From assembly GCA_002709075.1 (NCBI GenBank), contig PAPV01000005.1, positions 89,989 through 153,988 of the forward strand: 64,000 nucleotides of DNA, in the 5' to 3' direction. The stretch comes from Rhodospirillaceae bacterium (GTDB lineage: Bacteria; Pseudomonadota; Alphaproteobacteria; MPNO01; UBA2964). The notes under the pieces are model-generated. The model saw nothing but the letters and a program-made list of their open reading frames with translations, did not search any database and was not told the origin of the DNA. Shown here in pieces: positions 1 through 44,034 of the stretch. Every line of letters starts with the position of its first letter. Position 1 is the stretch's first letter. Made by a program: the position numbers and the translations under genes.

Positions 1-443
1 TTTTCTTCATTTGCCTCATCAATGCACAGCATCACGTTTACAAAATTGGTGGCATAATTCTCCCAACCTGCTTGCGAGTCCTGGTGAGGTTTAAAGCCAG
101 AACCACCTGGCATTTTGAAATTGATTTTTTCTTTAAATAAATAGGCAGCTTCACCTAATAACTGTTCAACCATAATTTTCAAAACATTGGTTAAAGTTGC
201 AAACCCGTTGTGGAAAGGAGAAATATATTCTATACGGTTTATAAGTTTTTTATTATCGATTTGGCCGCTCTCATGAAAAACCCAATGTTTTCCCGCCTCT
301 TCGGGTAGTTCTTCAACCTCCATTGCCCATTTATCAATTATCTCAATGTCAGATGAAGAAAAAGCATTATACAATGCACAACATCCGTTAGCATTAAATT
401 CACTAATATGTTGGTGTGTGAGAATAGGTGTGACAATCATCAT
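1..443 (-). CDS. PhyH-family Fe(II)/2-oxoglutarate dioxygenase. The 5' end (ATG at 443-441) is present; the 3' end is cut by the window edge
   Basis: Hand translation of the minus strand gives MMIVTPILTHQHISEFNANGCCALYNAF...FKMPGGSGFKPHQDSQAGWENY. The K-x-PGG...HQD block with the H-x-D iron ligands is the PhyH/phytanoyl-CoA dioxygenase signature. The ORF track does not list it because it runs off the edge. Confidence 0.6.
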   Translation of the reverse strand, partial: MMIVTPILTHQHISEFNANGCCALYNAFSSSDIEIIDKWAMEVEELPEEAGKHWVFHESGQIDNKKLINRIEYISPFHNGFATLTNVLKIMVEQLLGEAAYLFKEKINFKMPGGSGFKPHQDSQAGWENYATNFVNVMLCIDEANEE

Positions 444-535: not shown

Positions 536-1675
536 ATGATTGACGCAGATGATTTTTTGAACCCAGCGCTTCAGGCTGGTTTTAATTTTTACACTGGTGT
601 TCCTTGTTCATTTCTAACACCAATAATTAATAGGGTTATCTGCTCTGAAACTACGGAGTATATTGCTGCGGCAAGTGAAGGGGAAGCTGTAGGGATAGCT
701 GCGGGTGCTTGGTTGGCAGGGAAACTCCCTGTTATAATGTGTCAGAACTCCGGCCTCGGGAATGCTGTTAATCCTCTTACCTCTCTTAATTATCCTTTTA
801 AAATACCAGCACTTTTGATTGTTACGTGGCGGGGGGCGGTGGGTTTAGATGATGAACCGCAACATCAGCTTATGGGACAGATCACTAAGGATATATTAAA
901 TATTATGCGTGTTCCGTATGGTATGTTCCCCAATAACAAAGCCTCAATTAACCCTGCAATTGAGAAGGCTATTAGTGAAATTTCTAAAAATAACCTTCCT
1001 TATGCCATGTTGATGAAAAAAGGTTCAATTCAAAACGAGGAAATACAGCCATTAAAATCCGATAATTTTATTTCAGGTGAACTTTATGATTGGACAACTT
1101 CAAAAATTTTTCCTAGCAGGGTTTCGGCAATTAAAAATGCACTTGAAATTCTACCTTCAGATGTAGGAATTATTTCTACCACTGGATATACAGGACGAGA
1201 GCTTTATGAAGTGGCTGATCGAGAACAACACCTATATCAAGTCGGATCAATGGGATGCGCTGCTGGAATGGGGTTTGGAATTGCAATTAATTCAGAGAAA
1301 AATATTTGCGTTTTTGATGGAGACGGAGCAGCTTTAATGAAGCTTGGTACCATGGCTACAGTTGGCGCTTACAAACCTAAAAATTTCATCCACATATTAT
1401 TTGATAATGGGACTTATCAGTCTACCGGCGGACAGCCTACAGTTTCATCAAGTATCAATTTTGCTAAAATTGCAATTGCTTGTGGTTATCGGTTAGCTTT
1501 TTCTTGCAATGATTTAACCCATTTTAATGAAGCGTTAAACAAAAGTAAAATTGATGGTGGCCCCACACTGATTCATATGCGGGTAAGAAAAAAATCTTTA
1601 GTTGTCCCAGGGAGGCCTAAGATCGGTCCAGCAGAAGTTGCTGCACGTTTCAGAGATTTTTTAGCGCAAGAATAA
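536..1675 (+). CDS. ppd: Phosphonopyruvate decarboxylase (ThDP-dependent). Track ORF starts at GTG 521; ATG 536 (MIDADDF...) preferred
   Basis: ThDP-binding motif GDGAALMKLGTMATVGAYKPKNFIHILFDNGTYQ (GDG...NN). Overall length and N-terminus are typical of Ppd/AepY and sulfopyruvate decarboxylase relatives. The context with a PhnW-like transaminase favours Ppd. A GAGAAAG RBS-like element sits 6 nt upstream of ATG 536. Confidence 0.7.
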   Translation: MIDADDFLNPALQAGFNFYTGVPCSFLTPIINRVICSETTEYIAAASEGEAVGIAAGAWLAGKLPVIMCQNSGLGNAVNPLTSLNYPFKIPALLIVTWRGAVGLDDEPQHQLMGQITKDILNIMRVPYGMFPNNKASINPAIEKAISEISKNNLPYAMLMKKGSIQNEEIQPLKSDNFISGELYDWTTSKIFPSRVSAIKNALEILPSDVGIISTTGYTGRELYEVADREQHLYQVGSMGCAAGMGFGIAINSEKNICVFDGDGAALMKLGTMATVGAYKPKNFIHILFDNGTYQSTGGQPTVSSSINFAKIAIACGYRLAFSCNDLTHFNEALNKSKIDGGPTLIHMRVRKKSLVVPGRPKIGPAEVAARFRDFLAQE

Positions 1676-1680
1676 TTTTT

Positions 1681-2823
1681 TTATTTACGATTCAAGTTTT
1701 TCGAATTTAAACCAATTGATGCCAAATAAATAGATATTTCTGAGAGTGCGCGGTCAATATCTGTTTTGTTAATATCGCCAATGCAACCAATTCTGAATGT
1801 TTTTTCCTGTGTGACTGCGCCAGGATAAAGTATTACTCCTTTTTTACGCAACGCCTCGTACATCATTTCAAAATCAAAATTTGGATTTTTTGGAAATCGG
1901 ACAGTTACAATTATTGGTGACTGTTGCATTTTAGATAAGAACAAATTAAAGCCTAATAAGCGTAATCCATCCACAAGCTGGTTACAATTAGCTTGATAAC
2001 GTGTTTCCCTTGCCGAAACACCGCCCTCGTTCTCCAGTTCTACAAGGGCTTGATCGAGTGCGGCTAAGACATGTGTGGGAGGTGTAAACCGCCACTGACC
2101 AGTTTTATCTAAATATTTGGCTTGATCATGCAAATCAAGGCAAAGCGAGTTAGCATTTCCGGCAGTAGTATTTAGGATGTTTGTCTTAATTATTGCATAA
2201 GCAATCCCAGGAACACTTTGCAGACATTTGTTTGACGAAGATATCAGCGCGGTTGCAGGTATTTTCTTGAGATTTATTTTTAAAGCACCAAAACTACTCA
2301 TTGCATCAATGATCATTTCACGTTTAGCATTTCTAACGATTGATGCTATATTCTCTATTGGGTTTAGAATGCCAGATGTGGTTTCACAATGGACTACGGC
2401 GACGTGGGTAATATCTGTGTTGGTTTCAAGTCGGGAGGCAATTTCGCAGGGGTCGGGCTGAATGTCTTCAGGTGTTTTGTACACTTCATATGCTCTGCCG
2501 AGATAATCACAGATTTTAGCCATGCGTTCCCCGTAAACGCCATTAATCAGAATTAAACATTTTCCCATTCTACGTGGCAGCAATGTGCCGAGTGTAGCTT
2601 CAACAGCAAAAGTTCCACTGCCTTGGATTGGAATGCAGTTATAGCCTTCTTCTGCCCCTGCAAGTTTACAAAGTTTCGATCGGACTCTAGCGGTCATCTC
2701 TATGAACGTTTTGTCTCTCGATCCTATATCGCGATTTAATGCCTTCCTAACTGTGACTGACGTTGTCAATGGACCCGGTGTGAGGAGAATTTCTCCACGT
2801 TTTCTCTCTTCGTTAGTTTGCAT
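1681..2823 (-). CDS. phnW: 2-aminoethylphosphonate:pyruvate aminotransferase (class V, PhnW-like AEP transaminase)
   Basis: Strong PhnW-type blocks: LLTPGPLTTS near the N-terminus, IDAMSSFG, SSSNKCLQSVPG (PLP lysine region), WRFTPPTH and IYPGAVTQEKTFRIGCIG. Convergent with ppd, with only 5 bp between the stop codons. Confidence 0.8.
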   Translation of the reverse strand: MQTNEERKRGEILLTPGPLTTSVTVRKALNRDIGSRDKTFIEMTARVRSKLCKLAGAEEGYNCIPIQGSGTFAVEATLGTLLPRRMGKCLILINGVYGERMAKICDYLGRAYEVYKTPEDIQPDPCEIASRLETNTDITHVAVVHCETTSGILNPIENIASIVRNAKREMIIDAMSSFGALKINLKKIPATALISSSNKCLQSVPGIAYAIIKTNILNTTAGNANSLCLDLHDQAKYLDKTGQWRFTPPTHVLAALDQALVELENEGGVSARETRYQANCNQLVDGLRLLGFNLFLSKMQQSPIIVTVRFPKNPNFDFEMMYEALRKKGVILYPGAVTQEKTFRIGCIGDINKTDIDRALSEISIYLASIGLNSKNLNRK

Positions 2824-2993
2824 TCTTCCTTGCCTAACTCGTTCCTATCATGCATGAATTTCTAGTATGCACATGTTGACAACTTTATGCCAAGCATACT
2901 TGTCTTTTGAAAACATGGGAGGAACCAATAAGCCATAATACTTGGATACACCGAATTGTACGGAAGGGGGTAAGACCACTTTTAAAGACATCG

Positions 2994-3539
2994 ATGCATC
3001 CCAATTTTCTTACAACACTTAGATTTCTTACCGGAATGTTTTCCGCTTTCCTATTCTCAATCGACAATTTCTATTGGAGATGGGAAGCAATTTTGATACT
3101 TACAATTTCTTTGTTACTAGATCGTGCAGATGGAGAATTTGCCCGTCAAACCGGCCGCACAAGTAAATTTGGTCATAAATATGACTTGGTTGCTGATGGG
3201 GTTTCTAACGCGGCTTTGTTCGCCGGTATAGGGTACGGAATGCCCTCAAACTCTTTAGGCGGTTATGCGATGGAGGTCGGTATGGCTGCTGGAATTGCAA
3301 TTCTAGGCACAGAATTTCTGGTAATGCGAGCACATGATACTGGAATAAAAAATACTAAGGATATTGGAAATTTTTATGGTTTTGATCCTGATGATGGAAT
3401 GTTTCTCGTCCCTGTGGTGCTTGCATTTCATTGGGAAAATGCATTACTCATAATTACGGTAATCGGAGCTATAATTTCATTGCTAGTTACATTAGTTATG
3501 GTTGTTCGTGGATCCAAAAATTCTGCAGGAAAACTGTGA
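2994..3539 (+). CDS. CDP-alcohol phosphotransferase-family membrane protein (small, ~181 aa; ORF extends to a TTG at 2907)
   Basis: Family motif D-G-x2-A-R-x8-G-x3-D-x3-D is present as DRADGEFARQTGRTSKFGHKYDLVADG. The N-terminal PNFLTTLRF matches the usual TM1 entry of this family. Multiple TM helices. No SD seen for either start, so the start is uncertain. Confidence 0.7.
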   Translation: MHPNFLTTLRFLTGMFSAFLFSIDNFYWRWEAILILTISLLLDRADGEFARQTGRTSKFGHKYDLVADGVSNAALFAGIGYGMPSNSLGGYAMEVGMAAGIAILGTEFLVMRAHDTGIKNTKDIGNFYGFDPDDGMFLVPVVLAFHWENALLIITVIGAIISLLVTLVMVVRGSKNSAGKL

Positions 3540-6155
3540 ATGTGGGAATGTTACTTAGGTAGACTTGCCAATAAGGTTGTGCATCTTTCGGTAAAACATC
3601 ACATAATAATTATTACCTCATATGTTTTGATTGCCGGATACTTATTTTGGTACGGTGCGGTAAACCTAGCAATCAATACAGACAATGCTGATCTTTTGTC
3701 TAGAGATCTTCCTTTCCGCACTCACCACATTGAAATAAAGGAGTCATTTCCACAGCTTTCTAACAATATTATTGTGGTCGTAGATGCGTTGACAACTGAG
3801 CAGGCGGATTATGCAGCTCTAAAACTTTTTAACGCTATTAAAGCAAAAAAAAAGTTATTCCCTGCTGTATTTTATCCTGCAGGAGAGAGATATTTTACTA
3901 AAAATAGCCTTTTATTTCTTGATAAGGTTCAACTCAGACATTTAATGGAACACCTAATAGACCATCAGTTTTTTATTGGTCGATTGGCTGCTGACCCGAG
4001 CCTTCGTGGATTATTCAATATTTTAACTCTTGCCCTTAATCAGGTGAAAAATAGTTTTGAAAAAAATGAATTAATTAGGTTCATGGATATGCTAACCAGA
4101 TCCCTCCAATCAGGACTCGAAAGACCGAAGGCAAGTTTTTCTTGGCAAAATTTTATAGGTCAAGATGCAGTTCAAGATCCAAAAAATCGCAGATTTATTA
4201 TCCTTAAACCAAATCTTGATTATGGTTCCTTACAACCTGCACAAAACTCAATGTCAGAAATCCGGAGGCTAGCCTCAAGTTTGAAACTTACCCCTGCTTT
4301 CGGTATTCGAGTGCGGCTCACTGGGACCGTTCCAATGGAACAAGAGGAGTTAGCCAGTGTGGTTGAAGGCATGGGTGTAGCCGGAGTGACATCATTTGTT
4401 TTGGTGTTAACACTTTTATTTGTGGCGATGCGATCATTTAAAATGGTTATTTCGGCTATATTAACATTAATTGCGGCCCTTGGCTGTACCGTCGGATTTG
4501 CGGCATGGGCTGTAGGCAGTCTGAATTTAATATCCGTTGCATTTATAGTTCTTTTCATAGGGCTGAGCGTAGATTTTGCCATTCATTTTTGTTTGCGAAT
4601 TCGGGAAGAAATAATTGATGGGAAAAGAATGTCAGGTTCGGCACCTAGAGCGGCTAGAAAGATAGCAGGCGCGCTCTGTTTGTGCACCGCTACTGCAATG
4701 ATAGCTTTCTTCAGTTTTTGGCCAACAAATTATGTAGGTCTGGCAGAACTTGGGATTATCTCAGGTGCAGGCATGCTTATTGCTCTAATAGTTAATCTAA
4801 CTTTTTTTCCTGCGCTTCTCAAAATGCTTGGGTTTTTTAATAGGTCAACTTCAATATGCAAAAAACCCATTGTTATAAATGAGGCCTGGCAAGTGAGGCA
4901 CTCCTTCAAGATTTTGATATTTGCTTCAGGCCTAACGATTGGGGCATCACTTCTCGTGGTGGATGTTCGTTTTGATTTTGATCCATTAAATCTAAAAGAT
5001 CCAGAAACTCAGTCGGTTTCAACCATGTTGGATTTAATGAATAAATCTGATTTATCGCTTTACTCTGCGGACATTTTAACCAAAGGGCCAACCGAAGCGA
5101 TAAAATTAACTCAAGAACTGAAAAATTTACCCACCGTCGGTAAAGTAGTAAATGCATTTAGCTTCATTCCTGTAGAGCAATCAGAGAAGCTATCTATAAT
5201 TTCTGAGGCTAAACTTCTTATTTTACCAGCGCTGTATTTGCCGAAGATACCCAAACCGAGTGAAATAGAAACTCGTAAGTCAATTGCTCAATTTCTTGAT
5301 TCGGCTACAAAAATGGATCATCAAAAACAACCCAAAATTGCATTTGCAGCTAAAAGTCTGATTAAAAGCATGCAACATTACAACCTAGAAAATCTGAAGG
5401 AATATAAACAACTAGAAGAAAATTTATTGGGTAATTTACCGAACTCAATAGAAAAACTAAAGGAGATGCTTTCCGCCTCCAGCGTTGTATTTGATGACGT
5501 GCCAATTAGTATCCGTCAACGTTTTGTTGATAAAGATAATCGCTGGCGGGTGGAGGTACATGCGGCAAAAAAAACAAGAGATCCAGATAATTTAATAACA
5601 TTCGTAGATGAACTGAAATCAGTGGCGCCGACGGTAACTGGGTCGCCTGTAATTATAGTTGAAGCAAGTCGCGTCGTTGTTCAGGCATTTTTGGTGGCGG
5701 CTGTCATATCCATCGGGGCAATTTCAATCTTGTTGCTCATACTGTTGAGAAGAATTGACGATGTGCTTTTGACATTTGTTCCTTTGGTATTGGCTACTTT
5801 ATTGACTGGCGCAGCAAGCGTTTTGCTTGATATGCCATTCAATTTTGCTAACATAATCGTATTGCCACTAATATTTGGTTTAGGGGTTTCCAGTATGGTG
5901 CACTTGATCATGCGGTCTGATGATTTTAGCATTCCAACCGCAATTTTTTTAACTTCAACCCCACGAGCAGTAAAATTTAGCGCTCTTACTACAATCGGAT
6001 CCTTCTCCACTATCGCACTCTCGAGTCATCCAGGAACCTCTAGCATGGGGGTGCTACTTGCCGTTTCCATCGGCTTCACTTTGGCTTCTTCTTTGATTTT
6101 GCTTCCGGCACTACTAGTATTGAGAAAGAACTTCATAATTAGTCGTGAAAATTAA
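3540..6155 (+). CDS. MMPL/RND-superfamily lipid exporter (HpnN-like, 871 aa)
   Basis: The architecture is TM1, a large periplasmic domain, a 5-TM bundle (GVAGVTSFVLVLTLLFVAMRSFKM...LSVDFAIHF, SSD-like), a second periplasmic domain and a second TM bundle. Size and layout match MMPL and HpnN-type transporters. Confidence 0.75.
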   Translation: MWECYLGRLANKVVHLSVKHHIIIITSYVLIAGYLFWYGAVNLAINTDNADLLSRDLPFRTHHIEIKESFPQLSNNIIVVVDALTTEQADYAALKLFNAIKAKKKLFPAVFYPAGERYFTKNSLLFLDKVQLRHLMEHLIDHQFFIGRLAADPSLRGLFNILTLALNQVKNSFEKNELIRFMDMLTRSLQSGLERPKASFSWQNFIGQDAVQDPKNRRFIILKPNLDYGSLQPAQNSMSEIRRLASSLKLTPAFGIRVRLTGTVPMEQEELASVVEGMGVAGVTSFVLVLTLLFVAMRSFKMVISAILTLIAALGCTVGFAAWAVGSLNLISVAFIVLFIGLSVDFAIHFCLRIREEIIDGKRMSGSAPRAARKIAGALCLCTATAMIAFFSFWPTNYVGLAELGIISGAGMLIALIVNLTFFPALLKMLGFFNRSTSICKKPIVINEAWQVRHSFKILIFASGLTIGASLLVVDVRFDFDPLNLKDPETQSVSTMLDLMNKSDLSLYSADILTKGPTEAIKLTQELKNLPTVGKVVNAFSFIPVEQSEKLSIISEAKLLILPALYLPKIPKPSEIETRKSIAQFLDSATKMDHQKQPKIAFAAKSLIKSMQHYNLENLKEYKQLEENLLGNLPNSIEKLKEMLSASSVVFDDVPISIRQRFVDKDNRWRVEVHAAKKTRDPDNLITFVDELKSVAPTVTGSPVIIVEASRVVVQAFLVAAVISIGAISILLLILLRRIDDVLLTFVPLVLATLLTGAASVLLDMPFNFANIIVLPLIFGLGVSSMVHLIMRSDDFSIPTAIFLTSTPRAVKFSALTTIGSFSTIALSSHPGTSSMGVLLAVSIGFTLASSLILLPALLVLRKNFIISREN

Positions 6156-7144
6156 TGTTTGCGATACGTGTTTTATGTTTGCTGATTGGAGTCGTCCTCT
6201 TAGCCATCATAATTGTTTCAACTGATATATATGCAGCCATAAAATTGATCCAGGGAATGGGATGGGGAATTTTGTTGGTAACGGTAGCTTATAGCGTAAT
6301 CTCATTTGGTGATACGCTATCTTTTCACGTGTTAACCCATAAGATACCCATGACCATAAGAAATTTTTACGAGCTGTGGAAAATAAGGTTAGTCGGTGAG
6401 GCCTATAATCAAGTATTGCCTCTCGGGGGTCTGGGAGGTGAGCCAATAAAAGCGGTTCTCTTAAAGCAGTCAACGGAAATGGATTTGGAAGAAATCACAG
6501 CCTCACTTTTCGCTGCAAAAACGGTAAACATCGTAACCCTAATTATCTTTTTGGCAGTTGGATTTCTTCTGATGGGTTGGGAAAAGAGAATTTCTCCAGA
6601 ATTTTTTCGGGCAGCTGGATTAGGATTAGCGGTTTTGAGTCTGGGTATACTGGGTTTCTTTCTTATTCAACGAATGGGTTTGTTGTCCGTTCTTTTCAGT
6701 AGACTGTTACATCGACTGAAAGGACGCTTTTTAAATGTAATTGCAATAATTTCAAACATTGAACACCGATTATACGAATGTTACCGCTATCGAAAATATC
6801 GTTTCCTAGCTTCGCTTTTTGTCGCTCTTATTGTTTGGGTTGTAAGCATAGTTGAAGTGTATTTAGTACTTTATTTTTTAGGGTATCCAATTAGTTGGAC
6901 AGAGGCATGGATTATAGAATCCGGAGCTCAATTAGTGAAAGCAGGCACCTTTTTTATTCCAGGAAGTATAGGAGCCTTTGATGGAGCATTTTTATTGCTG
7001 TGTGGAATGATTACTGGTTCGCCGGTGGTGGGTGCAGCCGTTGCGGTTGTAAGGAGGCTTCGCGAAATTTCATGGACTGCCTTTGGATTTGCTATCGGGA
7101 TATTCAGGCTGAAAAAATATGAACAAGGAAAGAAAAAATATTAA
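6155..7144 (+). CDS. Flippase-like / UPF0104 (LPG_synthase_TM) integral membrane protein, HpnL-like
   Basis: About eight predicted TM helices, 329 aa, with a conserved RLVGEAYNQVLPLGGLGGEP segment typical of the flippase-like domain. Its ATG overlaps the stop of the MMPL gene (TAATG), which suggests translational coupling. Confidence 0.6.
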   Translation: MFAIRVLCLLIGVVLLAIIIVSTDIYAAIKLIQGMGWGILLVTVAYSVISFGDTLSFHVLTHKIPMTIRNFYELWKIRLVGEAYNQVLPLGGLGGEPIKAVLLKQSTEMDLEEITASLFAAKTVNIVTLIIFLAVGFLLMGWEKRISPEFFRAAGLGLAVLSLGILGFFLIQRMGLLSVLFSRLLHRLKGRFLNVIAIISNIEHRLYECYRYRKYRFLASLFVALIVWVVSIVEVYLVLYFLGYPISWTEAWIIESGAQLVKAGTFFIPGSIGAFDGAFLLLCGMITGSPVVGAAVAVVRRLREISWTAFGFAIGIFRLKKYEQGKKKY

Positions 7145-7146
7145 AG

Positions 7147-7770
7147 TTAATTGGCAGCAAGAAGCCGTCTAGTTTTGGAATTTAAAACGATGGTTAATGC
7201 TTTTGTCCCCCCGGTTGTTAGAATTTTTCTGTATTCAGACCGTCTAGTTGCTAGCTCACTAATGCCACCCGCTAAAATTATATCTATCACACGCCAGACA
7301 CCATTGGTCTCTAGAAGAACGTATGCAATTTGAATTGGCTTGCTGCGTTTGTTGACTATTTGAGTGGTTATAACACGCGATCCACTCGGTCCAAGAGTGT
7401 TAGATAAAGTAATAAATTTTTGACCAGAAAAACTATTAAAACGCAACGCGTAGTTGGCAGCACTATAATTACGAAAAGCCTCAACTAGGTTCTTTTGTTC
7501 AATTAACTTTGCTTTACGCCAATGGTTACCACTAATAAGTTTAACCATCCCCTTTAAGTCAAAAACTTCTTGAACTAGCTCTCTTAGATTTTTATAGCGT
7601 CCTTGCAGCCCCAGATTATTTGCTGTCTTCATTGTATGCAATAAGTTCAAGTGAAATTTTTTTATTTGTAATACGGGTCTGTTCTCGGCGCGTGCGCCCG
7701 CAGACAATACGACCAAAATTATTAATAAAAATTGGAACAAACGTTTTTGTTTTCTATAAATTTGCTTCAT
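7147..7770 (-). CDS. MlaC/Ttg2D-family periplasmic phospholipid-binding protein (HpnM-like). The track ORF extends to 7818
   Basis: Signal peptide (FQFLLIILVVLSAGARA) followed by a ~190-aa soluble domain with the Ttg2D/MlaC pattern (NLRELVQEVFDLKGMVKLISGNHW...). The start at MKQIYRK is preferred over the upstream MFYKL. Confidence 0.6.
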   Translation of the reverse strand: MKQIYRKQKRLFQFLLIILVVLSAGARAENRPVLQIKKFHLNLLHTMKTANNLGLQGRYKNLRELVQEVFDLKGMVKLISGNHWRKAKLIEQKNLVEAFRNYSAANYALRFNSFSGQKFITLSNTLGPSGSRVITTQIVNKRSKPIQIAYVLLETNGVWRVIDIILAGGISELATRRSEYRKILTTGGTKALTIVLNSKTRRLLAAN

Positions 7771-8007
7771 GGTTAATTTGAGTGGCCCTTTGTTGTAATA
7801 TGTTAACTTGTAAAACATTTTTTACCTTATAAACGCAACCTGTAGAAAACTTAATGACAGATGGTGAATCTACTCTATTATCCTAAGGGAATAAGTGATT
7901 TAATCGGTAACGGATGAAACAGTTAGATATTTGTATTTGAGTGCCAGGTTTATTGATGATGATTCTAAATGAATAGTTATACTAAAAAAGTGAGTTAATT
8001 CTTTCAG

Positions 8008-8844
8008 ATGTTGAGTATGGATTTTATTCTAAGAGCCTTCATTCGATCGTGGAAATTGGTAGCAGTATCTATATTCTGTTTGTCAGTTTCCACATCATTT
8101 GCAACAGCATCGAAAATTTACACCACAACAGAGGTTGTTGCTCCCTATAAAATTGACTCTATAGATACAAATGACCCACTTGAGAGTGTAAATAGGGTAG
8201 TTTTTCATTTTAATGATATTATCTACTCATTTGTATTACGCCCTTTAAGTAAGGTTTACGACAAAATACTACCTGACTTTGTTCAGGCAGGCGTCCATAA
8301 CGCTCTGAACAATTTGAATTCACCAGTAATTTTAGCGAACGATCTATTACAAGGTGAATTTGGACGAGCTAAGATCACAATACAACGTGCCGTTATAAAC
8401 ACAACGGTGGGCGTAGGCGGTTTGTATGATGCAGCTTCTAAAATTTGGAAAATACCCATGCACAAAGAAGATTTTGGGCAAACATTCGCAGTTTGGGGTG
8501 TTCAAGAAGGTTTTTATTTAGTGTTACCAATCTTTGGTGCTTCAAATCCGCGTGACGCAACGGGACTAATTGTCAACATGTATGCAGATCCATTTTCTCA
8601 CTATCTAAGAAACATTGGCGAAAATGATGCTGCCATTGCGCGCACCGCGGTTGCAGGTTTAGACAAATTTTCTGAGGTAACGGATGATTTGGAAAAATTA
8701 AAGAAAACTTCGGTTGACTATTATGCAGCAGTTCGCAGTATTTACAGACAAAAGCGCGCGGTTGAAATAAAAAACAGGTCGCACAGAAAAGGCGTATCTA
8801 TTCCAGATTTACATTATGACTTAAATGCTGAGTTACTAAATTGA
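8008..8844 (+). CDS. mlaA: MlaA/VacJ-family outer-membrane lipoprotein
   Basis: Signal sequence, then the characteristic NDPLESVNRVVFHFND...DKILPDFVQ...NLNSPVILANDLLQG blocks of VacJ/MlaA. Confidence 0.8.
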   Translation: MLSMDFILRAFIRSWKLVAVSIFCLSVSTSFATASKIYTTTEVVAPYKIDSIDTNDPLESVNRVVFHFNDIIYSFVLRPLSKVYDKILPDFVQAGVHNALNNLNSPVILANDLLQGEFGRAKITIQRAVINTTVGVGGLYDAASKIWKIPMHKEDFGQTFAVWGVQEGFYLVLPIFGASNPRDATGLIVNMYADPFSHYLRNIGENDAAIARTAVAGLDKFSEVTDDLEKLKKTSVDYYAAVRSIYRQKRAVEIKNRSHRKGVSIPDLHYDLNAELLN

Positions 8845-9846: not shown

Positions 9847-11097
9847 TCAGGCAGCAGTATTTTCTTTTTGCTCCGATAGAATCCGTGAAACAGGTTTATC
9901 GTCGATTGGTAAATGCAGTAACGATGCCACTATCCCGGCACTGATAATCAACCACCAGGCATAGTCATAAGATCCAGTATGATATTTTATTATACCACCC
10001 AACCATACTGATGTGAAGCTTCCAACCTGATGGCTGAGAAATACTAATCCGTAAAGAGTTGCAAGATAGCGCGGTCCAAATACTTCTGCCACGATACCTG
10101 AGGTTAAAGGTACCGTTGCCAACCATAAAATACCAACCGAACAGGCGAATAAAATAACACTTAATTCAGTTTTTGGGAGAATAAAGAATACAAGAAAAAC
10201 TGTTGATCGAGCCGAATAAATAAATGCAAGCAAATACTTCTTTCTTAAAAATCCGCCAAGAAACCCGGAAGCTTGAGTACCAAGCATGTTAAAAAATCCT
10301 ATGAAGGCAATAGCGGTTGCTGCCATAGCGCCACCAACGGCTGTGGCATTTAAATAATTTTCTAAGTGGTTATTTATGAATTGAACTTGAAATCCACAAA
10401 CAAAGAAAGCGACAGTCAACAACCAAAAGCCACGATGACCTGCCGCTTCTTTTATAGCATCTCCGAGACTTTGACTGTCCTTTTTGGATAAAATGCCTTT
10501 GGCAGCACTTGCCATAGTCAGTGCAAATGGAACGACCAGTAAAGCCATAGTGCCAAGAACAATGGTTGCGTATACCCAACCTTTATAAGAAATTAGATAA
10601 TGTGTTAGGGGAACTATTAGCATCTGGCCTGCTGTACCTCCCGAAACAACAATACCAAGCCAAAAAGTCCGCCATTTTTCCGGAGCGACGCGGCCAACAA
10701 TTGATAATAACATTGGAAGTGCAATACCGGCTGACCCAAGTCCGATGAAGATTCCGACATTAAGCACCAATCCGAATTCAGATGTCGATTGTGACATCAT
10801 GAACAACCCAAAAGAGTAAAGCAAGCCGGATAGAATTAAAACACGAATTGGGCCCCAACGATCGGCGGCCGCACCCAGAAAGGGCGCGGCACAGCCATAA
10901 ATTAATAACTGGAGGCCGGTTGCGAAAGACATCACTCTTACATCGGTCCCCCAACCAAGGGCTTCGGAGACTGGGCGTAAAAACATTCCCATGCTTTGTC
11001 GACCACCATAGGCAAATAGAATGATACTTATCGCGCAAATCAACACGATGAATGGGTTATGCCAAATCGTTGACTTAATTATTTCTGCCCTCCACAC
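9847..11097 (-). CDS. MFS transporter (paralog 1 of 3 in tandem)
   Basis: Twelve predicted TM segments. The N-terminal block YGGRQSMGMFLRPVSEALGW and the LPMLLSIVGRVAPEKWR motif are shared with the next gene. Confidence 0.75.
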   Translation of the reverse strand: MWRAEIIKSTIWHNPFIVLICAISIILFAYGGRQSMGMFLRPVSEALGWGTDVRVMSFATGLQLLIYGCAAPFLGAAADRWGPIRVLILSGLLYSFGLFMMSQSTSEFGLVLNVGIFIGLGSAGIALPMLLSIVGRVAPEKWRTFWLGIVVSGGTAGQMLIVPLTHYLISYKGWVYATIVLGTMALLVVPFALTMASAAKGILSKKDSQSLGDAIKEAAGHRGFWLLTVAFFVCGFQVQFINNHLENYLNATAVGGAMAATAIAFIGFFNMLGTQASGFLGGFLRKKYLLAFIYSARSTVFLVFFILPKTELSVILFACSVGILWLATVPLTSGIVAEVFGPRYLATLYGLVFLSHQVGSFTSVWLGGIIKYHTGSYDYAWWLIISAGIVASLLHLPIDDKPVSRILSEQKENTAA

Positions 11098-11116
11098 ATT
11101 CTCACAAAATCAACAA

Positions 11117-12340
11117 TCACGCTGTTTGCGCAAGTCTTTCCACTGGAGTTTCCTTAATAGGCAGGTGAAAAAGGGCAGCAAGTGCGCCTCCCAGTATGAT
11201 AACCCACCACCAGATTTCATAGGAGCCAGTTGAGTCACGAACTACACCACCCATCCAAGTACTAAATGCTCCACCAATTTGATGACTAAGGAAAGCTATT
11301 GCGTATAGCGTTGCCATATAACGCGGTCCAAAAAGAGTGGATATGATACCTGCTGTGAGAGGGACTGTAGCTAGCCATAATACACCTATACATGAAGCAA
11401 AAATGTACACTGAAGTTTGGCTAATAGGCGCTAGAAAAAACGCAAGCATTACCAGTGAACGACCTACGTAGAGAAATACAAGAAGATTTTTTTTTCGAAA
11501 ATGTCCGCCCAGTTTACCCGCGAGCGCTGTACCAATCATGTTCGAAAATCCAATTAATGCTATGGCATGTGCGCCTATTGTTACACCGGTTCCTGTATCT
11601 TCAAGAAATTTGGGAAGGTGGGTAACAATAAATTGCACTTGGAAACCACAAGTAAAAAATCCTAGGCAGAGATACCAATAACTACGCGCTTCCCTTGCCT
11701 CTGAGAGGGCTTGCCCCAAAGTTTGCGTGTCTTTTTTTTGATCCAGGGCGTTTCCACTGGCTTTTCCAACAATTATTGCCATGGGAACAATTGCAAAAAT
11801 AAATGACGCTAAAATAATAACGGCATCAGTCCAGTCCATTCGTGTTAGTAAAAATCCATTAAGTGGAACAAGAAACATTTGTCCGCCTGTTCCGCCGGCG
11901 GATACAATCCCAAGCCATAGACTGCGTTTTTTTTCTGGTGCAACTCTTCCAACCACTGATAGAAGCATTGGTAGCCCGCAACCTGATGCTGCTAGTCCGC
12001 TAAGAACACCAATGCTAAGAGCGAGATGTAGTTCAGATACGGCATTGCTTAATTGGTACATCCCAAATGCATAGAGTGCACCCCCAATAATAAGCATCTT
12101 GATCGGCCCAAGCCATTTATCTGCAATCATGGAAACAAAGGGAACACTTATTCCGATAATCAGGGTTTGAAGACTGACGGCAAAAGAAAATGGTTCAACT
12201 CTTCCACCGCTGATAGAATCACTTATTGGAACGAGAAAAATGCCAAAACTTTGACGGGTCCCGTATGAAATTAATATGATAAGTGTGCATAGTAAAAGCA
12301 CAATGTATGGACTCTTCCACAAGGTGTTTGTTTCTGACAT
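11117..12340 (-). CDS. MFS transporter (paralog 2 of 3)
   Basis: Closely similar to paralog 1 (LPMLLSVVGRVAPEKKRSLWLGIV, HLPI...P tail). Confidence 0.75.
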   Translation of the reverse strand: MSETNTLWKSPYIVLLLCTLIILISYGTRQSFGIFLVPISDSISGGRVEPFSFAVSLQTLIIGISVPFVSMIADKWLGPIKMLIIGGALYAFGMYQLSNAVSELHLALSIGVLSGLAASGCGLPMLLSVVGRVAPEKKRSLWLGIVSAGGTGGQMFLVPLNGFLLTRMDWTDAVIILASFIFAIVPMAIIVGKASGNALDQKKDTQTLGQALSEAREARSYWYLCLGFFTCGFQVQFIVTHLPKFLEDTGTGVTIGAHAIALIGFSNMIGTALAGKLGGHFRKKNLLVFLYVGRSLVMLAFFLAPISQTSVYIFASCIGVLWLATVPLTAGIISTLFGPRYMATLYAIAFLSHQIGGAFSTWMGGVVRDSTGSYEIWWWVIILGGALAALFHLPIKETPVERLAQTA

Positions 12341-12359
12341 ATTTACTAGTTTCAGTTAA

Positions 12360-13595
12360 TCAACCAATCTTAGTTTGAAGCATCACTTTCCGAGTAACAG
12401 GCTTTTCATCAATTGGCCAGTGAATAAAAACTGCAACAAAACCCAGTCCAACCGCTGTCCACCAAACCGGATCGTAGGATCCTCCCCACCCACGTACAAT
12501 ACCACCAAAAGTGATGCCCACAAAACTTCCTAATTGATGGCTTAAGAATACAAATCCGTAAAGGGTTGCTAAATATTGTGTCCCGAAAATTTGAGCTACA
12601 AGCCCACTCGTTAGGGGAATTGTCCCAAGCCAGGTCAAACCCATCAAAGCAGAAAATATGATTGTGCTAACATCGGTTATAGGCATTAGCACATATACAA
12701 CGATACATAAGGACCTCATCATATACAATCCTGCAAGTAAGTATTTTTTACTATATCTGCCCCCTAAAGCACCCCAAACAAAGCTTCCTAGAATGTTAAA
12801 GAGACCAATTAAGGCAAGTGACCAAGCCGCTATCTCCGCAGATATACCAATATCCTTAAGATACAGAGGTAAGTGACTGGCAATAAAAAGTGTTTGGAAA
12901 CCACATACGAAGAAACCCAGAACTAGTAACAAATACCCACGATGATGAAGGGATTCAAAAATTGCTTCGGTCACACTTTGTCGTCGATCGAATTGGTCAT
13001 TTGAAATTATTGGCTTTCCCGCAATGGGTATTATGAGAGGTATTATAATCAGCATTATACACGATAATATTATCAGTGAACTAGCATATCCACTATCGAT
13101 CATAAAATAATGGGCAAATGGTACTACAATTACCTGCCCGCTAGAGCCACCAGCGCTGGCAATTCCCAAAAACAGACTGCGGCGCTTGAGGTGAATGCTG
13201 CGTCCAATTACTGATAGTATAATCGGGAACCCAGTAGCACTCATGGCAAGGCCAGTGAGAACACCCGTACTAACGTGTATTTCAATCTCAGTTGTTGAGG
13301 TGGCCATTAGGTATAGACCAAGAGCATATAACGCTGCACCAGCACTAATTACTCTGCCAGCACCGTATCTGTCTGCTACCACGCCCCATAGTGGTTGTGA
13401 TAGGCCCCAAACAAGAACCTGTAATCCCATTGAGAATGAAAACACAGAAATATTCCAACCATTCGATTCAGAAATTGGGCCTAAAAAAAGACCATATGTT
13501 TGGCGAATTCCAAAAGAGCTTAATAATATTAATGTGCCACAGATGAGAATTAGAGAGGGTGTTTTCCAACCAATTTTCTGTTCCCCAAAATCCAT
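12360..13595 (-). CDS. MFS transporter (paralog 3 of 3, more diverged)
   Basis: Same topology and conserved blocks (FGIRQTYGLFLGPISE, ILSVIGR...KRRSLFLGIASAGG) as paralogs 1 and 2. Confidence 0.75.
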   Translation of the reverse strand: MDFGEQKIGWKTPSLILICGTLILLSSFGIRQTYGLFLGPISESNGWNISVFSFSMGLQVLVWGLSQPLWGVVADRYGAGRVISAGAALYALGLYLMATSTTEIEIHVSTGVLTGLAMSATGFPIILSVIGRSIHLKRRSLFLGIASAGGSSGQVIVVPFAHYFMIDSGYASSLIILSCIMLIIIPLIIPIAGKPIISNDQFDRRQSVTEAIFESLHHRGYLLLVLGFFVCGFQTLFIASHLPLYLKDIGISAEIAAWSLALIGLFNILGSFVWGALGGRYSKKYLLAGLYMMRSLCIVVYVLMPITDVSTIIFSALMGLTWLGTIPLTSGLVAQIFGTQYLATLYGFVFLSHQLGSFVGITFGGIVRGWGGSYDPVWWTAVGLGFVAVFIHWPIDEKPVTRKVMLQTKIG

Positions 13596-41081: not shown

Positions 41082-41762
41082 TCAAGTCCCGGTTTCATCA
41101 CTTGTATTTGTGCTTGAATCAGGATTCGCAACTCCTCGCTGCGGTTGTAAAACACCATTAAATTGTACCTTTTCATCCTCAACATAAATATTTCCTAGAG
41201 CTATCTCGCGAAGCGCAAATGCATAACATTTGTGTTCTTCCTCCAAAACGCGTGAAGCTAATGTTTCTGGAGTGTCATTAACTAATATTGGTATTGCAGT
41301 TTGGATTATGATTGGTCCAGAGTCTACTCCAACGCGAACATAATGAACGGTACAACCAGCAAACTTAGTATCATCGGATATAGCTCTTTCATGAGTGTAC
41401 AATCCGGGATAAGCGGGAAGCAAAGAGGGATGAATATTAATCAATTTGTTGTACCATCGGTCAACAAACTTCTTGGTTAGAATCCTCATAAATCCGGCCA
41501 AGCATACAAATTCGACACCTGATAACATTAGTCGGTTGGTGAGAGCTTCCTCAAATTGTTCACGGTTTGGAAAATCTGTGTGATCAATAACATCATAATT
41601 TAATCCGAATTCTGCTGCTAGGCTAAGCCCTGGAGCGTCATTTGTATTGGATATTACGAGAGCTATTTCTGCCGCAGAATTAGATCTGTTGCATTCTTCA
41701 ATCAATGCTTGCATATTGCTTCCCCGGCCAGAAATTAAGACCGCGGTTCTTAGGCGCGCCAT
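41082..41762 (-). CDS. purN: Phosphoribosylglycinamide formyltransferase
   Basis: VLISGRGSNMQAL N-terminus and the formyltransferase core with HPSLLP. Confidence 0.9.
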   Translation of the reverse strand: MARLRTAVLISGRGSNMQALIEECNRSNSAAEIALVISNTNDAPGLSLAAEFGLNYDVIDHTDFPNREQFEEALTNRLMLSGVEFVCLAGFMRILTKKFVDRWYNKLINIHPSLLPAYPGLYTHERAISDDTKFAGCTVHYVRVGVDSGPIIIQTAIPILVNDTPETLASRVLEEEHKCYAFALREIALGNIYVEDEKVQFNGVLQPQRGVANPDSSTNTSDETGT

Positions 41763-42847: not shown

Positions 42848-42898
42848 AAACTATGTGTTAATAAGATTAGAAAGATACCTTTTCTCTATGGGTTTGCA

Positions 42899-44026: not shown

Positions 44027-44034
44027 GTCTTGAA

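What the first reader, a model, noticed from the sequence alone, without database searches (positions are those of the whole stretch)
2907..3539. Stand-alone small CDP-alcohol phosphotransferase next to the phosphonate genes, distinct from the housekeeping pgsA at 44035
The window contains two CDP-alcohol phosphotransferase-family proteins. One is the syntenic pgsA. The second, small copy (motif DRADGEFARQTGRTSKFGHKYDLVADG) sits between the AEP transaminase and the MMPL exporter. This is the expected place for an enzyme that transfers phosphono-ethanolamine from CMP-AEP to a lipid acceptor. That is an ethanolamine-phosphotransferase-like reaction. Its start codon is ambiguous (TTG 2907 or ATG 2994) and neither has an SD.
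Basis: inference. Interest (0 to 1): 0.6.

Follow-up and report, generated by a model that had tools for sequence, protein, structure and literature searches.

The report
Phosphonate head-group transferase inside hopanoid island

Summary
The ORF at 2907-3539 (+) is real. It is a 210-aa, six-helix CDP-alcohol phosphotransferase with all four catalytic Asp. The start is TTG 2907, because the N-terminal ISHNTWIHR block is conserved in homologues; the public 181-aa call is truncated. It reaches no cut-off for PgsA, PssA, PIPS, AIPS or ClsA. Its fold is closest to AF2299, IPCT-DIPPS and PIPS.

Across 80 genomes it recurs with an NTP_transf_3 cytidylyltransferase, a PhnY*-like 2OG hydroxylase, Ppd/AEPT (often PepM-PntC) and an MprF-flippase-like "HpnL". 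This matches the published but biochemically uncharacterised "Group 1 / Burkholderiales_CDP-OH" phosphonolipid cluster. Natural fusions join this enzyme type to the cytidylyltransferase, the oxygenase, the flippase domain and, once, HpnN.

The module is embedded in a hopanoid island (shc-hpnG-hpnH-hpnA ... hpnN-hpnL-hpnM-mlaA-like). The gene abuts hpnN (TGAATG).

Best reading: it transfers (1-hydroxy-)AEP from the CMP-activated phosphonate to a lipid alcohol, and the product is then flipped and exported. The acceptor is unresolved: diacylglycerol as published, or a hopanoid polyol. No PEP mutase lies in the window or in 7 kb of the same contig to its left. The 44035 gene is only PgsA-like.

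The parts
1..440 (-). 5' part of a PhyH-family 2OG/Fe(II) dioxygenase, related to PhnY*. The gene runs off the left edge of the window; the first 146 of 251 aa are inside.
   Evidence: Translation. tblastn against the full gene of L001 is 100% identical over aa 1-146. The full protein hits PF05721 at 81.8 bits, and its only NCBIfam hit is methylphosphonate hydroxylase NF052437 at 142 bits, E 2e-41, below the 500-bit cut-off.
536..1675 (+). Phosphonopyruvate decarboxylase (Ppd/AepY). The ORF list opens at GTG 521; the public gene call starts at ATG 536.
   Evidence: TIGR03297 at 424 bits, above the 312.5 cut-off; gene call in L001.
1681..2823 (-). 2-aminoethylphosphonate:pyruvate transaminase (AEPT/PhnW-AepZ), divergent from the CDP-AP gene.
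   Evidence: NF010006 486 bits; TIGR03301 457.7 bits, above 360.8.
2907..3539 (+). The finding: a type-1 (T1) CDP-alcohol phosphotransferase, 210 aa, starting at TTG 2907.
   Evidence: PF01066 at 57.6 bits. Complete catalytic motif and the family-specific invariant GFDPDD at aa 158-163. AF2 model with pLDDT 87.4 and pTM 0.83, mostly long helices. Foldseek best matches are AF2299, PgsA1-PIPS and IPCT-DIPPS.
3540..6155 (+). HpnN-type RND/MMPL lipid transporter. Its ATG directly abuts the CDP-AP stop codon (TGAATG).
   Evidence: TIGR03480 HpnN at 871 bits, above 751.85; NF052374 at 692.7, below 1100. Junction sequence.
6155..7144 (+). HpnL-like protein with the MprF flippase-type domain (LPG_synthase_TM). 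Its start overlaps the hpnN stop codon (TAATG).
   Evidence: PF03706 at 96 bits; TIGR00374 flippase-like at 54, above 43.2; TIGR03476 HpnL at 159.4, below 195.65. Junction.
7147..7818 (-). HpnM (MlaC-like periplasmic lipid carrier).
   Evidence: TIGR03481 at 167.6 bits, above 160.1; PF05494 at 112 bits.
8008..8844 (+). MlaA/VacJ-like outer-membrane lipoprotein, called 'HpnS' in PMC12324291.
   Evidence: PF04333 at 223 bits; preprint text.

Best explanation
The gene encodes an integral-membrane CDP-alcohol phosphotransferase that is the last biosynthetic step of a phosphonate head-group module.

Proposed pathway, with each step marked:
- Ppd and AEPT make 2-aminoethylphosphonate. The enzymes are identified by family models above cut-off; the activity is inferred.
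- A PhnY*-like 2OG dioxygenase probably hydroxylates it at C1 (inferred from homology).
- The NTP_transf_3 cytidylyltransferase, encoded about 330 nt to the left of the window, makes the CMP-phosphonate (inferred by analogy with PntC and IPCT).
- This enzyme transfers the phosphonyl group to the hydroxyl of a membrane lipid on the cytoplasmic leaflet (inferred).
- The co-translated HpnL-like flippase-type protein would flip the product. HpnN, HpnM and the MlaA-like lipoprotein would carry it to the outer membrane (inferred from operon structure and fusions).

The acceptor is not resolved. Diacylglycerol is the published default for homologous clusters. A C35 hopanoid polyol is the alternative suggested by the context.
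For: Active enzyme: all four catalytic Asp and the rest of the signature are invariant, and the AF2 model is confident.

Not a housekeeping synthase: PgsA 24 bits against a cut-off of 109, PssA 33/107, PIPS 46/170, AIPS 55/180, ClsA 23/240.

Conserved partners in 46 loci with at least 6 kb on both sides: HpnL-like 76%, HpnN 72%, NTP_transf_3 70%, PhyH 63%, HpnM 63%, HpnA 59%, any of PepM/Ppd/AEPT 48%.

No other transferase (no LicD, no glycosyltransferase family) and no hpnI/J/K is conserved in these loci. This enzyme is therefore the only conserved candidate to use the cytidylyltransferase product.

Split-gene logic: the cytidylyltransferase and this protein match the two halves of the bifunctional IPCT/DIPPS model NF041135, at profile positions 6-219 and 235-418.

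Natural fusions among family representatives: CDP-AP with NTP_transf_3 (P0188), with a 2OG oxygenase (P0181), with LPG_synthase_TM in both orders (7 representatives), and T1 with MMPL/HpnN (P0123).

Burkholderia multivorans carries the same functional set: CDP-AP at 34% identity, a 2OG oxygenase, LPG_synthase_TM, PntC, PepM-PntC, Ppd and AEPT. This is the 'Burkholderiales_CDP-OH' / Group 1 phosphonolipid core (PMC8942020). PMC5987646 Fig. 7 labels the same cluster genes (CDP-alcohol phosphatidyltransferase, 2OG-Fe(II) oxidase, NTP transferase, pepM, ppd, AEPT, hpnL), shows a proposed pathway, and lists HAEP, CMP, DAG and AAG among its abbreviations.

Operon coupling: TGAATG and TAATG junctions.
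Against: No enzyme of this clade has been assayed, and no phosphonolipid has been isolated from any organism with this cluster type (PMC8942020).

No PEP mutase is present in the 64-kb window or in the 7 kb of the same contig to its left. The closest relatives (L005, L007, L008, L018) also lack it within 10 kb on either side of the gene. Whether this organism can make phosphonopyruvate is therefore unknown.

Nine of the 46 loci keep the cytidylyltransferase, hydroxylase and CDP-AP but have no phosphonate genes within 10 kb.

The sequence and fold neighbours with a known reaction (PIPS, DIPPS) use phosphorylated polyol acceptors. PIPS uses CDP-diacylglycerol as donor, DIPPS uses soluble CDP-inositol, and AF2299's reaction is unknown. 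None transfers to diacylglycerol as an EPT does.
Confidence: 0.62

Rival explanations
1. Same chemistry, but the acceptor is a hopanoid. The enzyme would put the (hydroxy)aminoethylphosphonyl group on a side-chain hydroxyl of bacteriohopanetetrol, giving a phosphono-hopanoid. HpnL would flip it and HpnN/HpnM/MlaA-like would export it.
For: The module occupies the head-group-tailoring position of the hpn island: shc-hpnG-hpnH-hpnA-[NTP3-PhyH-Ppd-AEPT-CDP-AP]-hpnN-hpnL-hpnM-mlaA-like. This arrangement recurs in alpha- and gammaproteobacterial genomes and on a Roseomonas marmotae plasmid. Hopanoid genes are near the gene more often than phosphonate genes are (HpnN 72% and HpnA 59% against 48%). 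HpnN follows T1 directly or after one paralogue in about 30 of 67 loci. One T1-HpnN fusion exists. No hpnI/J/K or other tailoring gene is conserved in these loci. A 'phosphonoterpene' has been speculated for a Nitrosococcus cluster (PMC8942020, PMC7285500).
Against: No phosphorylated or phosphonylated hopanoid has been reported. A UHPLC-HRMS survey of 54 alphaproteobacterial cultures included Skermanella aerolata 5416T-32, the strain of locus L040, and listed only known classes (PMC12583986). In Burkholderia and in loci such as L035, L039, L048 and L049 the module stands apart from hopanoid genes. The T1-HpnN fusion rests on one 3.6-kb contig. The published proposals name diacylglycerol.
Confidence: 0.25
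2. Reversed roles: the enzyme uses CDP-diacylglycerol as donor and the C1 hydroxyl of 1-hydroxy-AEP (or another small amino alcohol) as acceptor. The product would be a phosphatidyl-hydroxy-AEP with a free phosphonate, analogous to PGP, PIP or PS synthesis.
For: The nearest characterised relatives by profile and fold include the CDP-DAG-dependent PIP synthases. The hydroxylase is a tight partner and would create the required hydroxyl. The invariant acidic GFDPDD motif, specific to this family, could hold an amine (inference).
Against: This leaves the conserved and sometimes fused cytidylyltransferase without a consumer. The IPCT/DIPPS-like split architecture points to a soluble CDP/CMP-X donor.
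Confidence: 0.1
3. The donor is an ordinary phosphate ester (CDP-ethanolamine, CDP-choline or similar) and the adjacency to phosphonate genes is incidental. The product would be a conventional phospholipid or phospho-decorated lipid.
For: Nine of the 46 loci have the cytidylyltransferase, oxygenase and CDP-AP but no phosphonate genes within 10 kb. No PepM was found in this window. RefSeq names the Roseomonas cytidylyltransferase 'phosphocholine cytidylyltransferase family'.
Against: Ppd and AEPT, or PepM-PntC-Ppd-AEPT, are inserted at the same spot, between the oxygenase and the CDP-AP, in many lineages. The oxygenase's only curated relative is a phosphonate alpha-hydroxylase. Ppd has no known role outside phosphonate biosynthesis (established knowledge).
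Confidence: 0.07
4. It is a redundant housekeeping phospholipid synthase (PgsA, PssA, a CDP-AP-type cardiolipin synthase, or PIPS).
For: It belongs to PF01066 and gives weak hits to all these models.
Against: It scores far below every equivalog cut-off. It shares 24% identity over 79 aa with the PgsA-like gene of the same window. Its family-specific motifs (ISHNTWIHR, GFDPDD) and its conserved specialised context argue against this role.
Confidence: 0.02

Closest known systems
CDP-alcohol phosphatidyltransferase gene of the 'Group 1 phosphonolipid' / 'Burkholderiales_CDP-OH' ppm clusters (Li & Horsman 2022, PMC8942020, which attributes the Group 1 label to Yu et al., its ref. 2; also drawn for lichen Nostoc in PMC5987646)
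   Same: It is homologous, at 34% identity over 188 aa to the Burkholderia multivorans gene. The partner set is the same: 2OG oxygenase, stand-alone PntC-like cytidylyltransferase, LPG_synthase_TM/'hpnL', Ppd and AEPT. The predicted role is the same.
   Different: It belongs to a distinct subfamily (T1: DRADG...GHxYD, ISHNTWIHR, GFDPDD), whereas the Burkholderia protein has DHTDG and GFETED. The oxygenase here is of the PhyH/PhnY* type, while Burkholderia's is a different 2OG family that gave no tblastn hit with the PhyH query. No PepM-PntC is in the local cluster. The module is embedded in the hpn island and co-translated with hpnN. The reference cluster is itself biochemically uncharacterised.
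IPCT-DIPPS (bifunctional CTP:inositol-1-P cytidylyltransferase / di-myo-inositol-phosphate-phosphate synthase, PDB 4MND) and AF2299 (PDB 4O6M)
   Same: These are the best sequence and fold matches: AF2299 profile E 1e-10, and 4MND with a TM-score of 0.71 normalised to the query. The logic is the same: a cytidylyltransferase makes a soluble CDP-X that the six-TM transferase uses. Here the two activities are separate genes, and in P0188 they are fused.
   Different: It scores 42.9 bits against a 580-bit cut-off. No inositol genes are present. The context points to a phosphonate donor and a lipid product, whereas DIPPS makes a soluble osmolyte.
Eukaryote-type ethanolamine/choline phosphotransferases (EPT1/CEPT1/CHPT1), which make phosphonolipids from CMP-AEP in ciliates (own knowledge)
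   Same: This is the reaction type proposed: CMP/CDP-activated head group plus lipid alcohol. The catalytic signature is shared.
   Different: It is not a member. The model shows about six transmembrane helices, whereas the CHPT1/CEPT1 chains are much longer (364-387 residues against 210), and the Foldseek matches are weak (E 0.1-1, TM 0.39-0.55).
MprF (lysyl-phosphatidylglycerol synthase fused to a flippase)
   Same: The architecture is analogous: a head-group-adding enzyme is paired with, and in 7 family representatives fused to, the same LPG_synthase_TM domain. In MprF that domain flips an amine-bearing lipid (established knowledge).
   Different: The synthase part is unrelated: a CDP-AP rather than an aminoacyl-tRNA-dependent transferase. 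The flippase role here is inferred only.

Membership tests
CDP-alcohol phosphotransferase superfamily (PF01066) | Signature D(x)2DG(x)2AR(x)7-8G(x)3D(x)3D on TM2-TM3 | tested here: met
   D72, D75, G76, A79, R80, G89, D93 and D97 are all present and invariant in 107 homologues.
CDP-alcohol phosphotransferase superfamily (PF01066) | Pfam score above the gathering threshold, and the six-TM fold with an N-terminal interfacial helix | tested here: met
   57.6 bits against 22. AF2 model with pLDDT 87.4 and helices at 13-27, 32-51, 55-82, 87-111, 116-145 and 161-209. Foldseek probability 1.00 to AF2299, PIPS and DIPPS.
PgsA (CDP-DAG:glycerol-3-P phosphatidyltransferase) | Score above the TIGR00560 / NF008090 equivalog cut-off | tested here: not met
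   24.0 bits against 109.1, and 16.1 against 304. Foldseek to PgsA 7DRJ/7DRK gives E 0.8-2.4.
PIP synthase / archaetidylinositol-P synthase | Score above the NF045883 / NF040950 cut-off | tested here: not met
   46.0 against 170 and 54.9 against 180. These are the best-scoring curated families and the nearest folds, but the scores are far below membership.
PssA / CDP-AP-type cardiolipin synthase ClsA | Score above the TIGR00473 / NF053678 cut-off | tested here: not met
   33.4 against 107 and 22.8 against 240.
Eukaryote-type EPT/CPT | A much larger multi-helix architecture that shares the CDP-AP core | tested here: not met
   210 aa with about six TM helices, against CHPT1/CEPT1 chains of 364-387 residues. 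The structural matches to CHPT1 and CEPT1 are weak.
Group 1 / Burkholderiales_CDP-OH phosphonolipid gene cluster | Ppd and AEPT adjacent | tested here: met
   Ppd at 536-1675 and AEPT at 1681-2823, both above equivalog cut-offs.
Group 1 / Burkholderiales_CDP-OH phosphonolipid gene cluster | 2OG/Fe(II) oxygenase in the cluster | tested here: met
   A PhyH-family gene at window 1-440 (minus strand; full length in L001) that is PhnY*-like. It belongs to a different 2OG family from the Burkholderia gene.
Group 1 / Burkholderiales_CDP-OH phosphonolipid gene cluster | Stand-alone PntC-like cytidylyltransferase | tested here: met
   An NTP_transf_3 gene of 241 aa lies just left of the window, at L001 5949-6674. 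It is 39.5% identical to the Burkholderia gene.
Group 1 / Burkholderiales_CDP-OH phosphonolipid gene cluster | PEP mutase (usually fused to a second PntC) in the cluster | tested here: not met
   There is no PepM motif or tblastn hit in the 64-kb window or in L001. It is present in 26 related loci, for example L012. The rest of this genome could not be searched.
Group 1 / Burkholderiales_CDP-OH phosphonolipid gene cluster | CDP-OH transferase plus LPG_synthase_TM ('hpnL') pair | tested here: met
   2907-3539 and 6155-7144. The pair is conserved in 76% of loci and fused in 7 family representatives.
Group 1 / Burkholderiales_CDP-OH phosphonolipid gene cluster | Product is a phosphonolipid | not testable with these tools
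   No product has been characterised for any member (PMC8942020).

The most novel reading that the evidence does not exclude
The enzyme phosphonylates a hopanoid. It would transfer (1-hydroxy-)2-aminoethylphosphonate from its CMP conjugate to bacteriohopanetetrol, creating a class of composite hopanoid that has never been observed. HpnL would be its flippase and HpnN/HpnM/MlaA-like its export route. This would also give HpnL its first function.
Probability: 0.25. Interest if true: 0.85.

Novelty: new member of a known kind. Interest (0 to 1): 0.5.

Why it matters
Homologous ppm clusters with a CDP-alcohol transferase are the largest group of bacterial phosphonate clusters in RefSeq (36% of neighbourhoods in PMC8942020). 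Even so, neither the lipid nor the transferase has been characterised.

This locus and its relatives add three things:
- The transferase travels with a flippase-type protein and is sometimes fused to it, which argues for a lipid product.
- In many marine and soil Alpha- and Gammaproteobacteria the module is built into the hopanoid island and co-translated with hpnN.
- Cultured carriers exist in which the acceptor (diacylglycerol or hopanoid) can be determined: Skermanella aerolata KACC 11604 and Roseomonas marmotae 1318.

If the acceptor is a hopanoid, this would be a new biomarker class and a new sink for marine phosphonate. If it is diacylglycerol, the locus is an ordinary member of an already predicted pathway.

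Tried and rejected
- PEP mutase: I searched the window and L001 with the EDKxxxxxNS motif and by tblastn with a PepM-PntC fusion from L012. None was found.
- I tried to learn whether the source MAG has PepM elsewhere by searching the protein database with a PepM domain and looking for the MAG's locus-tag prefix. The names shown carried no tags, so this was inconclusive.
- The promoter and terminator scan of 2600-8100 gave no more sites than shuffled sequence and was not used.
- PDB sequence searches with the cytidylyltransferase and the oxygenase gave only distant, uninformative hits.
- Yu et al. 2013 is not held in the library. Supplements of the hopanoid preprint are not held.
- Literature searches for hopanoid with CDP-alcohol, hopanoid with pepM, phosphonolipid with hopanoid, and CMP-AEP with phosphonolipid found no experimental work on this enzyme.
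- The model coordinates are not exposed, so the position of GFDPDD relative to the active site could only be inferred from the helix order.
- I considered and rejected a catabolic reading of the PhnY*-like gene, because no PhnZ-type HD phosphohydrolase appears in the called genes of L001 or among the conserved neighbour families.
Full report
**Observation**

The ORF at 2907-3539 (+) is present exactly as described. It encodes 210 aa and matches Pfam CDP-OH_P_transf at 57.6 bits, against a cut-off of 22. The quoted motif begins at nt 3120. It is the complete CDP-alcohol phosphotransferase signature: D72, D75, G76, A79, R80, G89, D93, D97. All of these positions are invariant in alignments of 26 and 107 homologues.

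An AlphaFold2 model built on the 107-sequence alignment is confident (pLDDT 87.4, pTM 0.83). It shows an N-terminal interfacial helix followed by long, mostly transmembrane-length helices. Only two genes in the window carry this signature, this one and 44035-44595.

**Start codon**

TTG 2907 is the only ATG/GTG/TTG in frame between the upstream stop codon (TGA 2877-2879) and the peptide ISHNTWIHRIVR (aa 8-19). That block is nearly invariant across homologues of 37-64% identity, many of which begin MSHNTWIHR. In the model, residues 13-27 form the interfacial helix. The public 181-aa call from ATG 2994 (P0001) removes this helix and is most likely a mis-called start.

**What it is not**

It reaches no curated equivalog cut-off:

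| Family | Score (bits) | Cut-off (bits) |
|---|---|---|
| AIPS | 54.9 | 180 |
| PIPS | 46.0 | 170 |
| IPCT/DIPPS | 42.9 | 580 |
| PssA | 33.4 | 107 |
| PgsA | 24.0 | 109.1 |
| ClsA | 22.8 | 240 |

A profile search of PDB sequences puts AF2299 first (E 1e-10), then mycobacterial PIP synthase. Foldseek agrees: AF2299, PgsA1-PIPS, IPCT-DIPPS (TM 0.71) and Renibacterium PIPS (TM 0.73). PgsA and the eukaryote-type choline/ethanolamine phosphotransferases match only weakly. By ancestry the enzyme is nearest the AF2299/DIPPS/PIPS group rather than EPT/CPT.

**Source and wider context**

An identical protein is annotated in a marine MAG named Rhodospirillaceae bacterium. A 158-kb contig with the same sequence extends the window to the left (L001). 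The gene order there is:

SQS_PSY – squalene-hopene cyclase – HpnG-type phosphorylase – HpnH-type radical SAM (minus strand) – HpnA – NTP_transf_3 – PhyH (minus) – Ppd – AEPT (minus) – CDP-AP – HpnN – HpnL-like – HpnM (minus) – MlaA-like – Nfu.

- HpnA scores 471 bits, above 367.65.
- HpnN scores 871 bits on TIGR03480, above 751.85.
- HpnM scores 167.6 bits, above 160.1.
- The 'MMPL exporter' is therefore a hopanoid-type RND transporter, and the finding lies inside a hopanoid biosynthesis and transport island.
- The CDP-AP stop codon abuts the hpnN start (TGAATG), and the hpnN stop overlaps the hpnL-like start (TAATG). The three genes are an operon with translational coupling; this is shown directly by the sequence.

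**Comparative genomics**

A scan of one genome per species returned more than 507 relatives, of which the best 80 loci were kept. Most are Alphaproteobacteria (Rhodospirillales and relatives), with some Gammaproteobacteria. Cultured examples include Skermanella aerolata KACC 11604 and Rhodospirillaceae bacterium LM-1.

Neighbours were found by tblastn with the L001 proteins. In the 46 loci with at least 6 kb on both sides, the frequencies are:

| Neighbour | Loci (%) |
|---|---|
| HpnL-like | 76 |
| HpnN | 72 |
| NTP_transf_3 | 70 |
| PhyH | 63 |
| HpnM | 63 |
| HpnA | 59 |
| HpnH | 48 |
| MlaA-like | 46 |
| Ppd | 46 |
| PepM-PntC | 37 |
| AEPT | 35 |

- HpnN follows the gene directly in 14 of 67 loci, and after one intervening paralogue in about 16-18 more.
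- De novo clustering of all ORFs in the loci found no other conserved transferase and no hpnI/J/K.
- Where phosphonate genes are present they sit at the same spot, between the oxygenase and the CDP-AP. In some loci this is Ppd-AEPT, as here. In others it is PepM-PntC-Ppd-AEPT, as in L012, whose 545-aa protein is a PEP mutase (TIGR02320, 395 bits) fused to a nucleotidyltransferase.
- A Roseomonas marmotae plasmid carries hpnA-...-shc-hpnG-hpnH-ispH followed by the CDP-AP, AEPT, an LPG-synthase-domain protein, aepY, aepX, a cytidylyltransferase, an MMPL gene and a VacJ gene.

**Link to the published phosphonolipid clusters**

Burkholderia multivorans chromosome 2 has a homologue at 34% identity. 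It is followed by a 2OG oxygenase, an LPG_synthase_TM protein, a PntC-like gene, PepM-PntC, Ppd and AEPT.

This is the seven-gene 'Burkholderiales_CDP-OH' core, which Li & Horsman equate with the 'Group 1 phosphonolipids' of Yu et al. (their ref. 2). It makes up 36% of the RefSeq ppm neighbourhoods they analysed. It is predicted to make a 1-hydroxy-AEP lipid, and no product has been characterised (PMC8942020). The same cluster is drawn for lichen Nostoc with the labels CDP-alcohol phosphatidyltransferase, OG-Fe(II), NTPT, pepM, ppd, AEPT and hpnL, together with a proposed pathway; the paper's abbreviation list includes HAEP, CMP, DAG and AAG (PMC5987646).

It is reasonable, but it is not new in kind.

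**Evidence for the mechanism**

1. The oxygenase's only curated relative is the phosphonate alpha-hydroxylase PhnY* (NF052437, 142 bits, E 2e-41). It keeps the HxD motif (PHQD). No PhnZ-type gene is among the called genes of L001 or the conserved neighbour families. A biosynthetic hydroxylation of AEP to 1-hydroxy-AEP is the economical reading.
2. The cytidylyltransferase and the CDP-AP match the N- and C-terminal halves of the bifunctional IPCT/DIPPS model. That enzyme makes a soluble CDP-alcohol and uses it immediately.
3. An exhaustive profile search of 1.84 billion representatives found 165 family representatives at E<=1e-30. Among them are natural fusions of this enzyme type:
   - with NTP_transf_3 (P0188);
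   - with a 2OG oxygenase (P0181);
   - with LPG_synthase_TM in both domain orders (seven representatives);
   - once, a T1-type enzyme continuing into an HpnN (P0123, a single 3.6-kb contig).

   The flippase-domain fusions copy the MprF layout and argue that the product is a membrane lipid that must be flipped.
4. PntC enzymes are known to make CMP-AEP (PMC6697681).

Every catalytic step for this protein is inferred. None has been shown.

**Open points**

- No PEP mutase is present in the window or in the 7 kb of the same contig to its left. The closest relatives (L005, L007, L008, L018) also lack it within 10 kb on either side of the gene. A protein search could not tell whether the MAG has one elsewhere.
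- Nine of the 46 loci keep the cytidylyltransferase, oxygenase and CDP-AP but have no phosphonate genes within 10 kb. Either those genes are unlinked, or AEP is imported, or the donor is not always a phosphonate.
- The acceptor is unknown.

**The acceptor: diacylglycerol or hopanoid**

For a hopanoid acceptor:
- the position of the module in the hpn island;
- the tighter linkage to hopanoid genes than to phosphonate genes;
- the coupling with hpnN;
- the absence of any other conserved tailoring gene in these loci;
- an earlier passing speculation about a 'phosphonoterpene' in Nitrosococcus.

Against it:
- No phosphorus-containing hopanoid has been reported. A recent survey included the very Skermanella strain that carries the cluster (PMC12583986). 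That survey did note an unexplained lack of Rohmer degradation products from the strain.
- The module stands alone in Burkholderia and in some alphaproteobacterial loci.
- Two recent hopanoid genomics papers list HpnL as of unknown function and do not mention this gene or phosphonates.

I put the hopanoid acceptor at about 0.25.

**Paralogues**

Related loci hold up to three CDP-AP types:
- T1 (DRADG...GHxYDLxAD, GFDPDD), the type in this window;
- T2 (DHFDG...GYYxDYxxG, GFELED), in which the fourth catalytic Asp is replaced by Gly; it is usually divergent, between T1 and hpnN;
- T3 (DNCDGE[IV]AR), which lies after hpnN.

The window's organism has T1 only.

**The second CDP-AP in the window**

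The gene at 44035-44595 matches PF01066 at 104.9 bits but PgsA at only 86.4 bits, below the 109.1 cut-off, and ClsA at 86.8, below 240. Its context is purN-purM / DUF2066 – CDP-AP – AI-2E transporter – Hda. It is clearly a different enzyme from the finding (24% identity over 79 aa). 'Housekeeping pgsA' is plausible but not demonstrated.

**Verdict**

The enzyme is a new member of the predicted, uncharacterised phosphonolipid-cluster transferases. The hopanoid-island context, the operon with hpnN and the domain fusions are the useful additions, and they make the acceptor question testable in cultured strains.

Noticed in passing
window 44035-44595 (+), with neighbours 41082-46326: The second CDP-alcohol phosphotransferase scores below the PgsA equivalog cut-off (86.4 against 109.1 bits) and equally well on ClsA (86.8 against 240). 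It has DALDGYIAK, with Lys in place of the usual Arg. Its context is purN-purM / DUF2066 / CDP-AP / AI-2E transporter / Hda. Its identity as the housekeeping pgsA is unproven.
   Followed up: partly
window 2994 (ATG) versus 2907 (TTG); protein P0001: The public 181-aa annotation of this gene starts at ATG 2994. That cuts off the conserved N-terminal ISHNTWIHR interfacial helix, so it is a probable start-site mis-call.
   Followed up: yes
L012 10630-11289 (-), and 38 other loci; L034 13863-14534 (+), and 14 other loci: Two further CDP-AP paralogue types occur in related clusters. T2 has Gly in place of the fourth catalytic Asp (DHFDGELAR...GYYxDYxxG), which may make it inactive or altered in chemistry. 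T3 (DNCDGE[IV]AR) sits after hpnN. Neither is present in this window.
   Followed up: partly
P0123 (L087 176-3445); P0163, P0194, P0195, P0201, P0204, P0210, P0251; P0188; P0181: Natural fusion proteins join this CDP-AP type to HpnN/MMPL (one short contig), to the MprF-type flippase domain in both orders (seven representatives), to an NTP_transf_3 cytidylyltransferase, and to a 2OG oxygenase.
   Followed up: partly
window 1-64000 and L001 1-10000: There is no PEP mutase anywhere in the window or in the 7 kb of the same contig to its left, although Ppd and AEPT are present. The closest relatives (L005, L007, L008, L018) share this gap, while 26 other loci have a PepM-PntC fusion between the oxygenase and Ppd.
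   Followed up: partly
window 9847-13595 (-) and 14160-15389 (-): Three tandem MFS_1 transporter ORFs of about 410 aa lie immediately downstream of the Nfu gene, with a fourth ORF of similar size nearby that was not checked. Their substrate is unknown, and whether they relate to the lipid module (for example by importing AEP) was not examined.
   Followed up: no
L040 (Skermanella aerolata KACC 11604 = 5416T-32): This cultured strain carries hpnN-hpnA-T1-HpnL-like-PhyH-NTP3-PepM-PntC-Ppd-AEPT. A 2025 hopanoid survey reported that it gave no Rohmer degradation products although intact BHPs were seen by LC-MS, and called this unexplained (PMC12583986).
   Followed up: partly
L085 13637-15466 (Burkholderia multivorans chromosome 2): The Burkholderia version of the cluster uses a 2OG oxygenase from a different family. 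It gave no hit with the PhyH query, and its motif is WHYD...H. This looks like a non-orthologous replacement at the same step.
   Followed up: no
L018 1709-5218: One relative has extra genes inserted between the cytidylyltransferase and the PhyH gene. By eye these are a GDSL-like hydrolase and a TauD-like dioxygenase; neither was checked with a family search.
   Followed up: no
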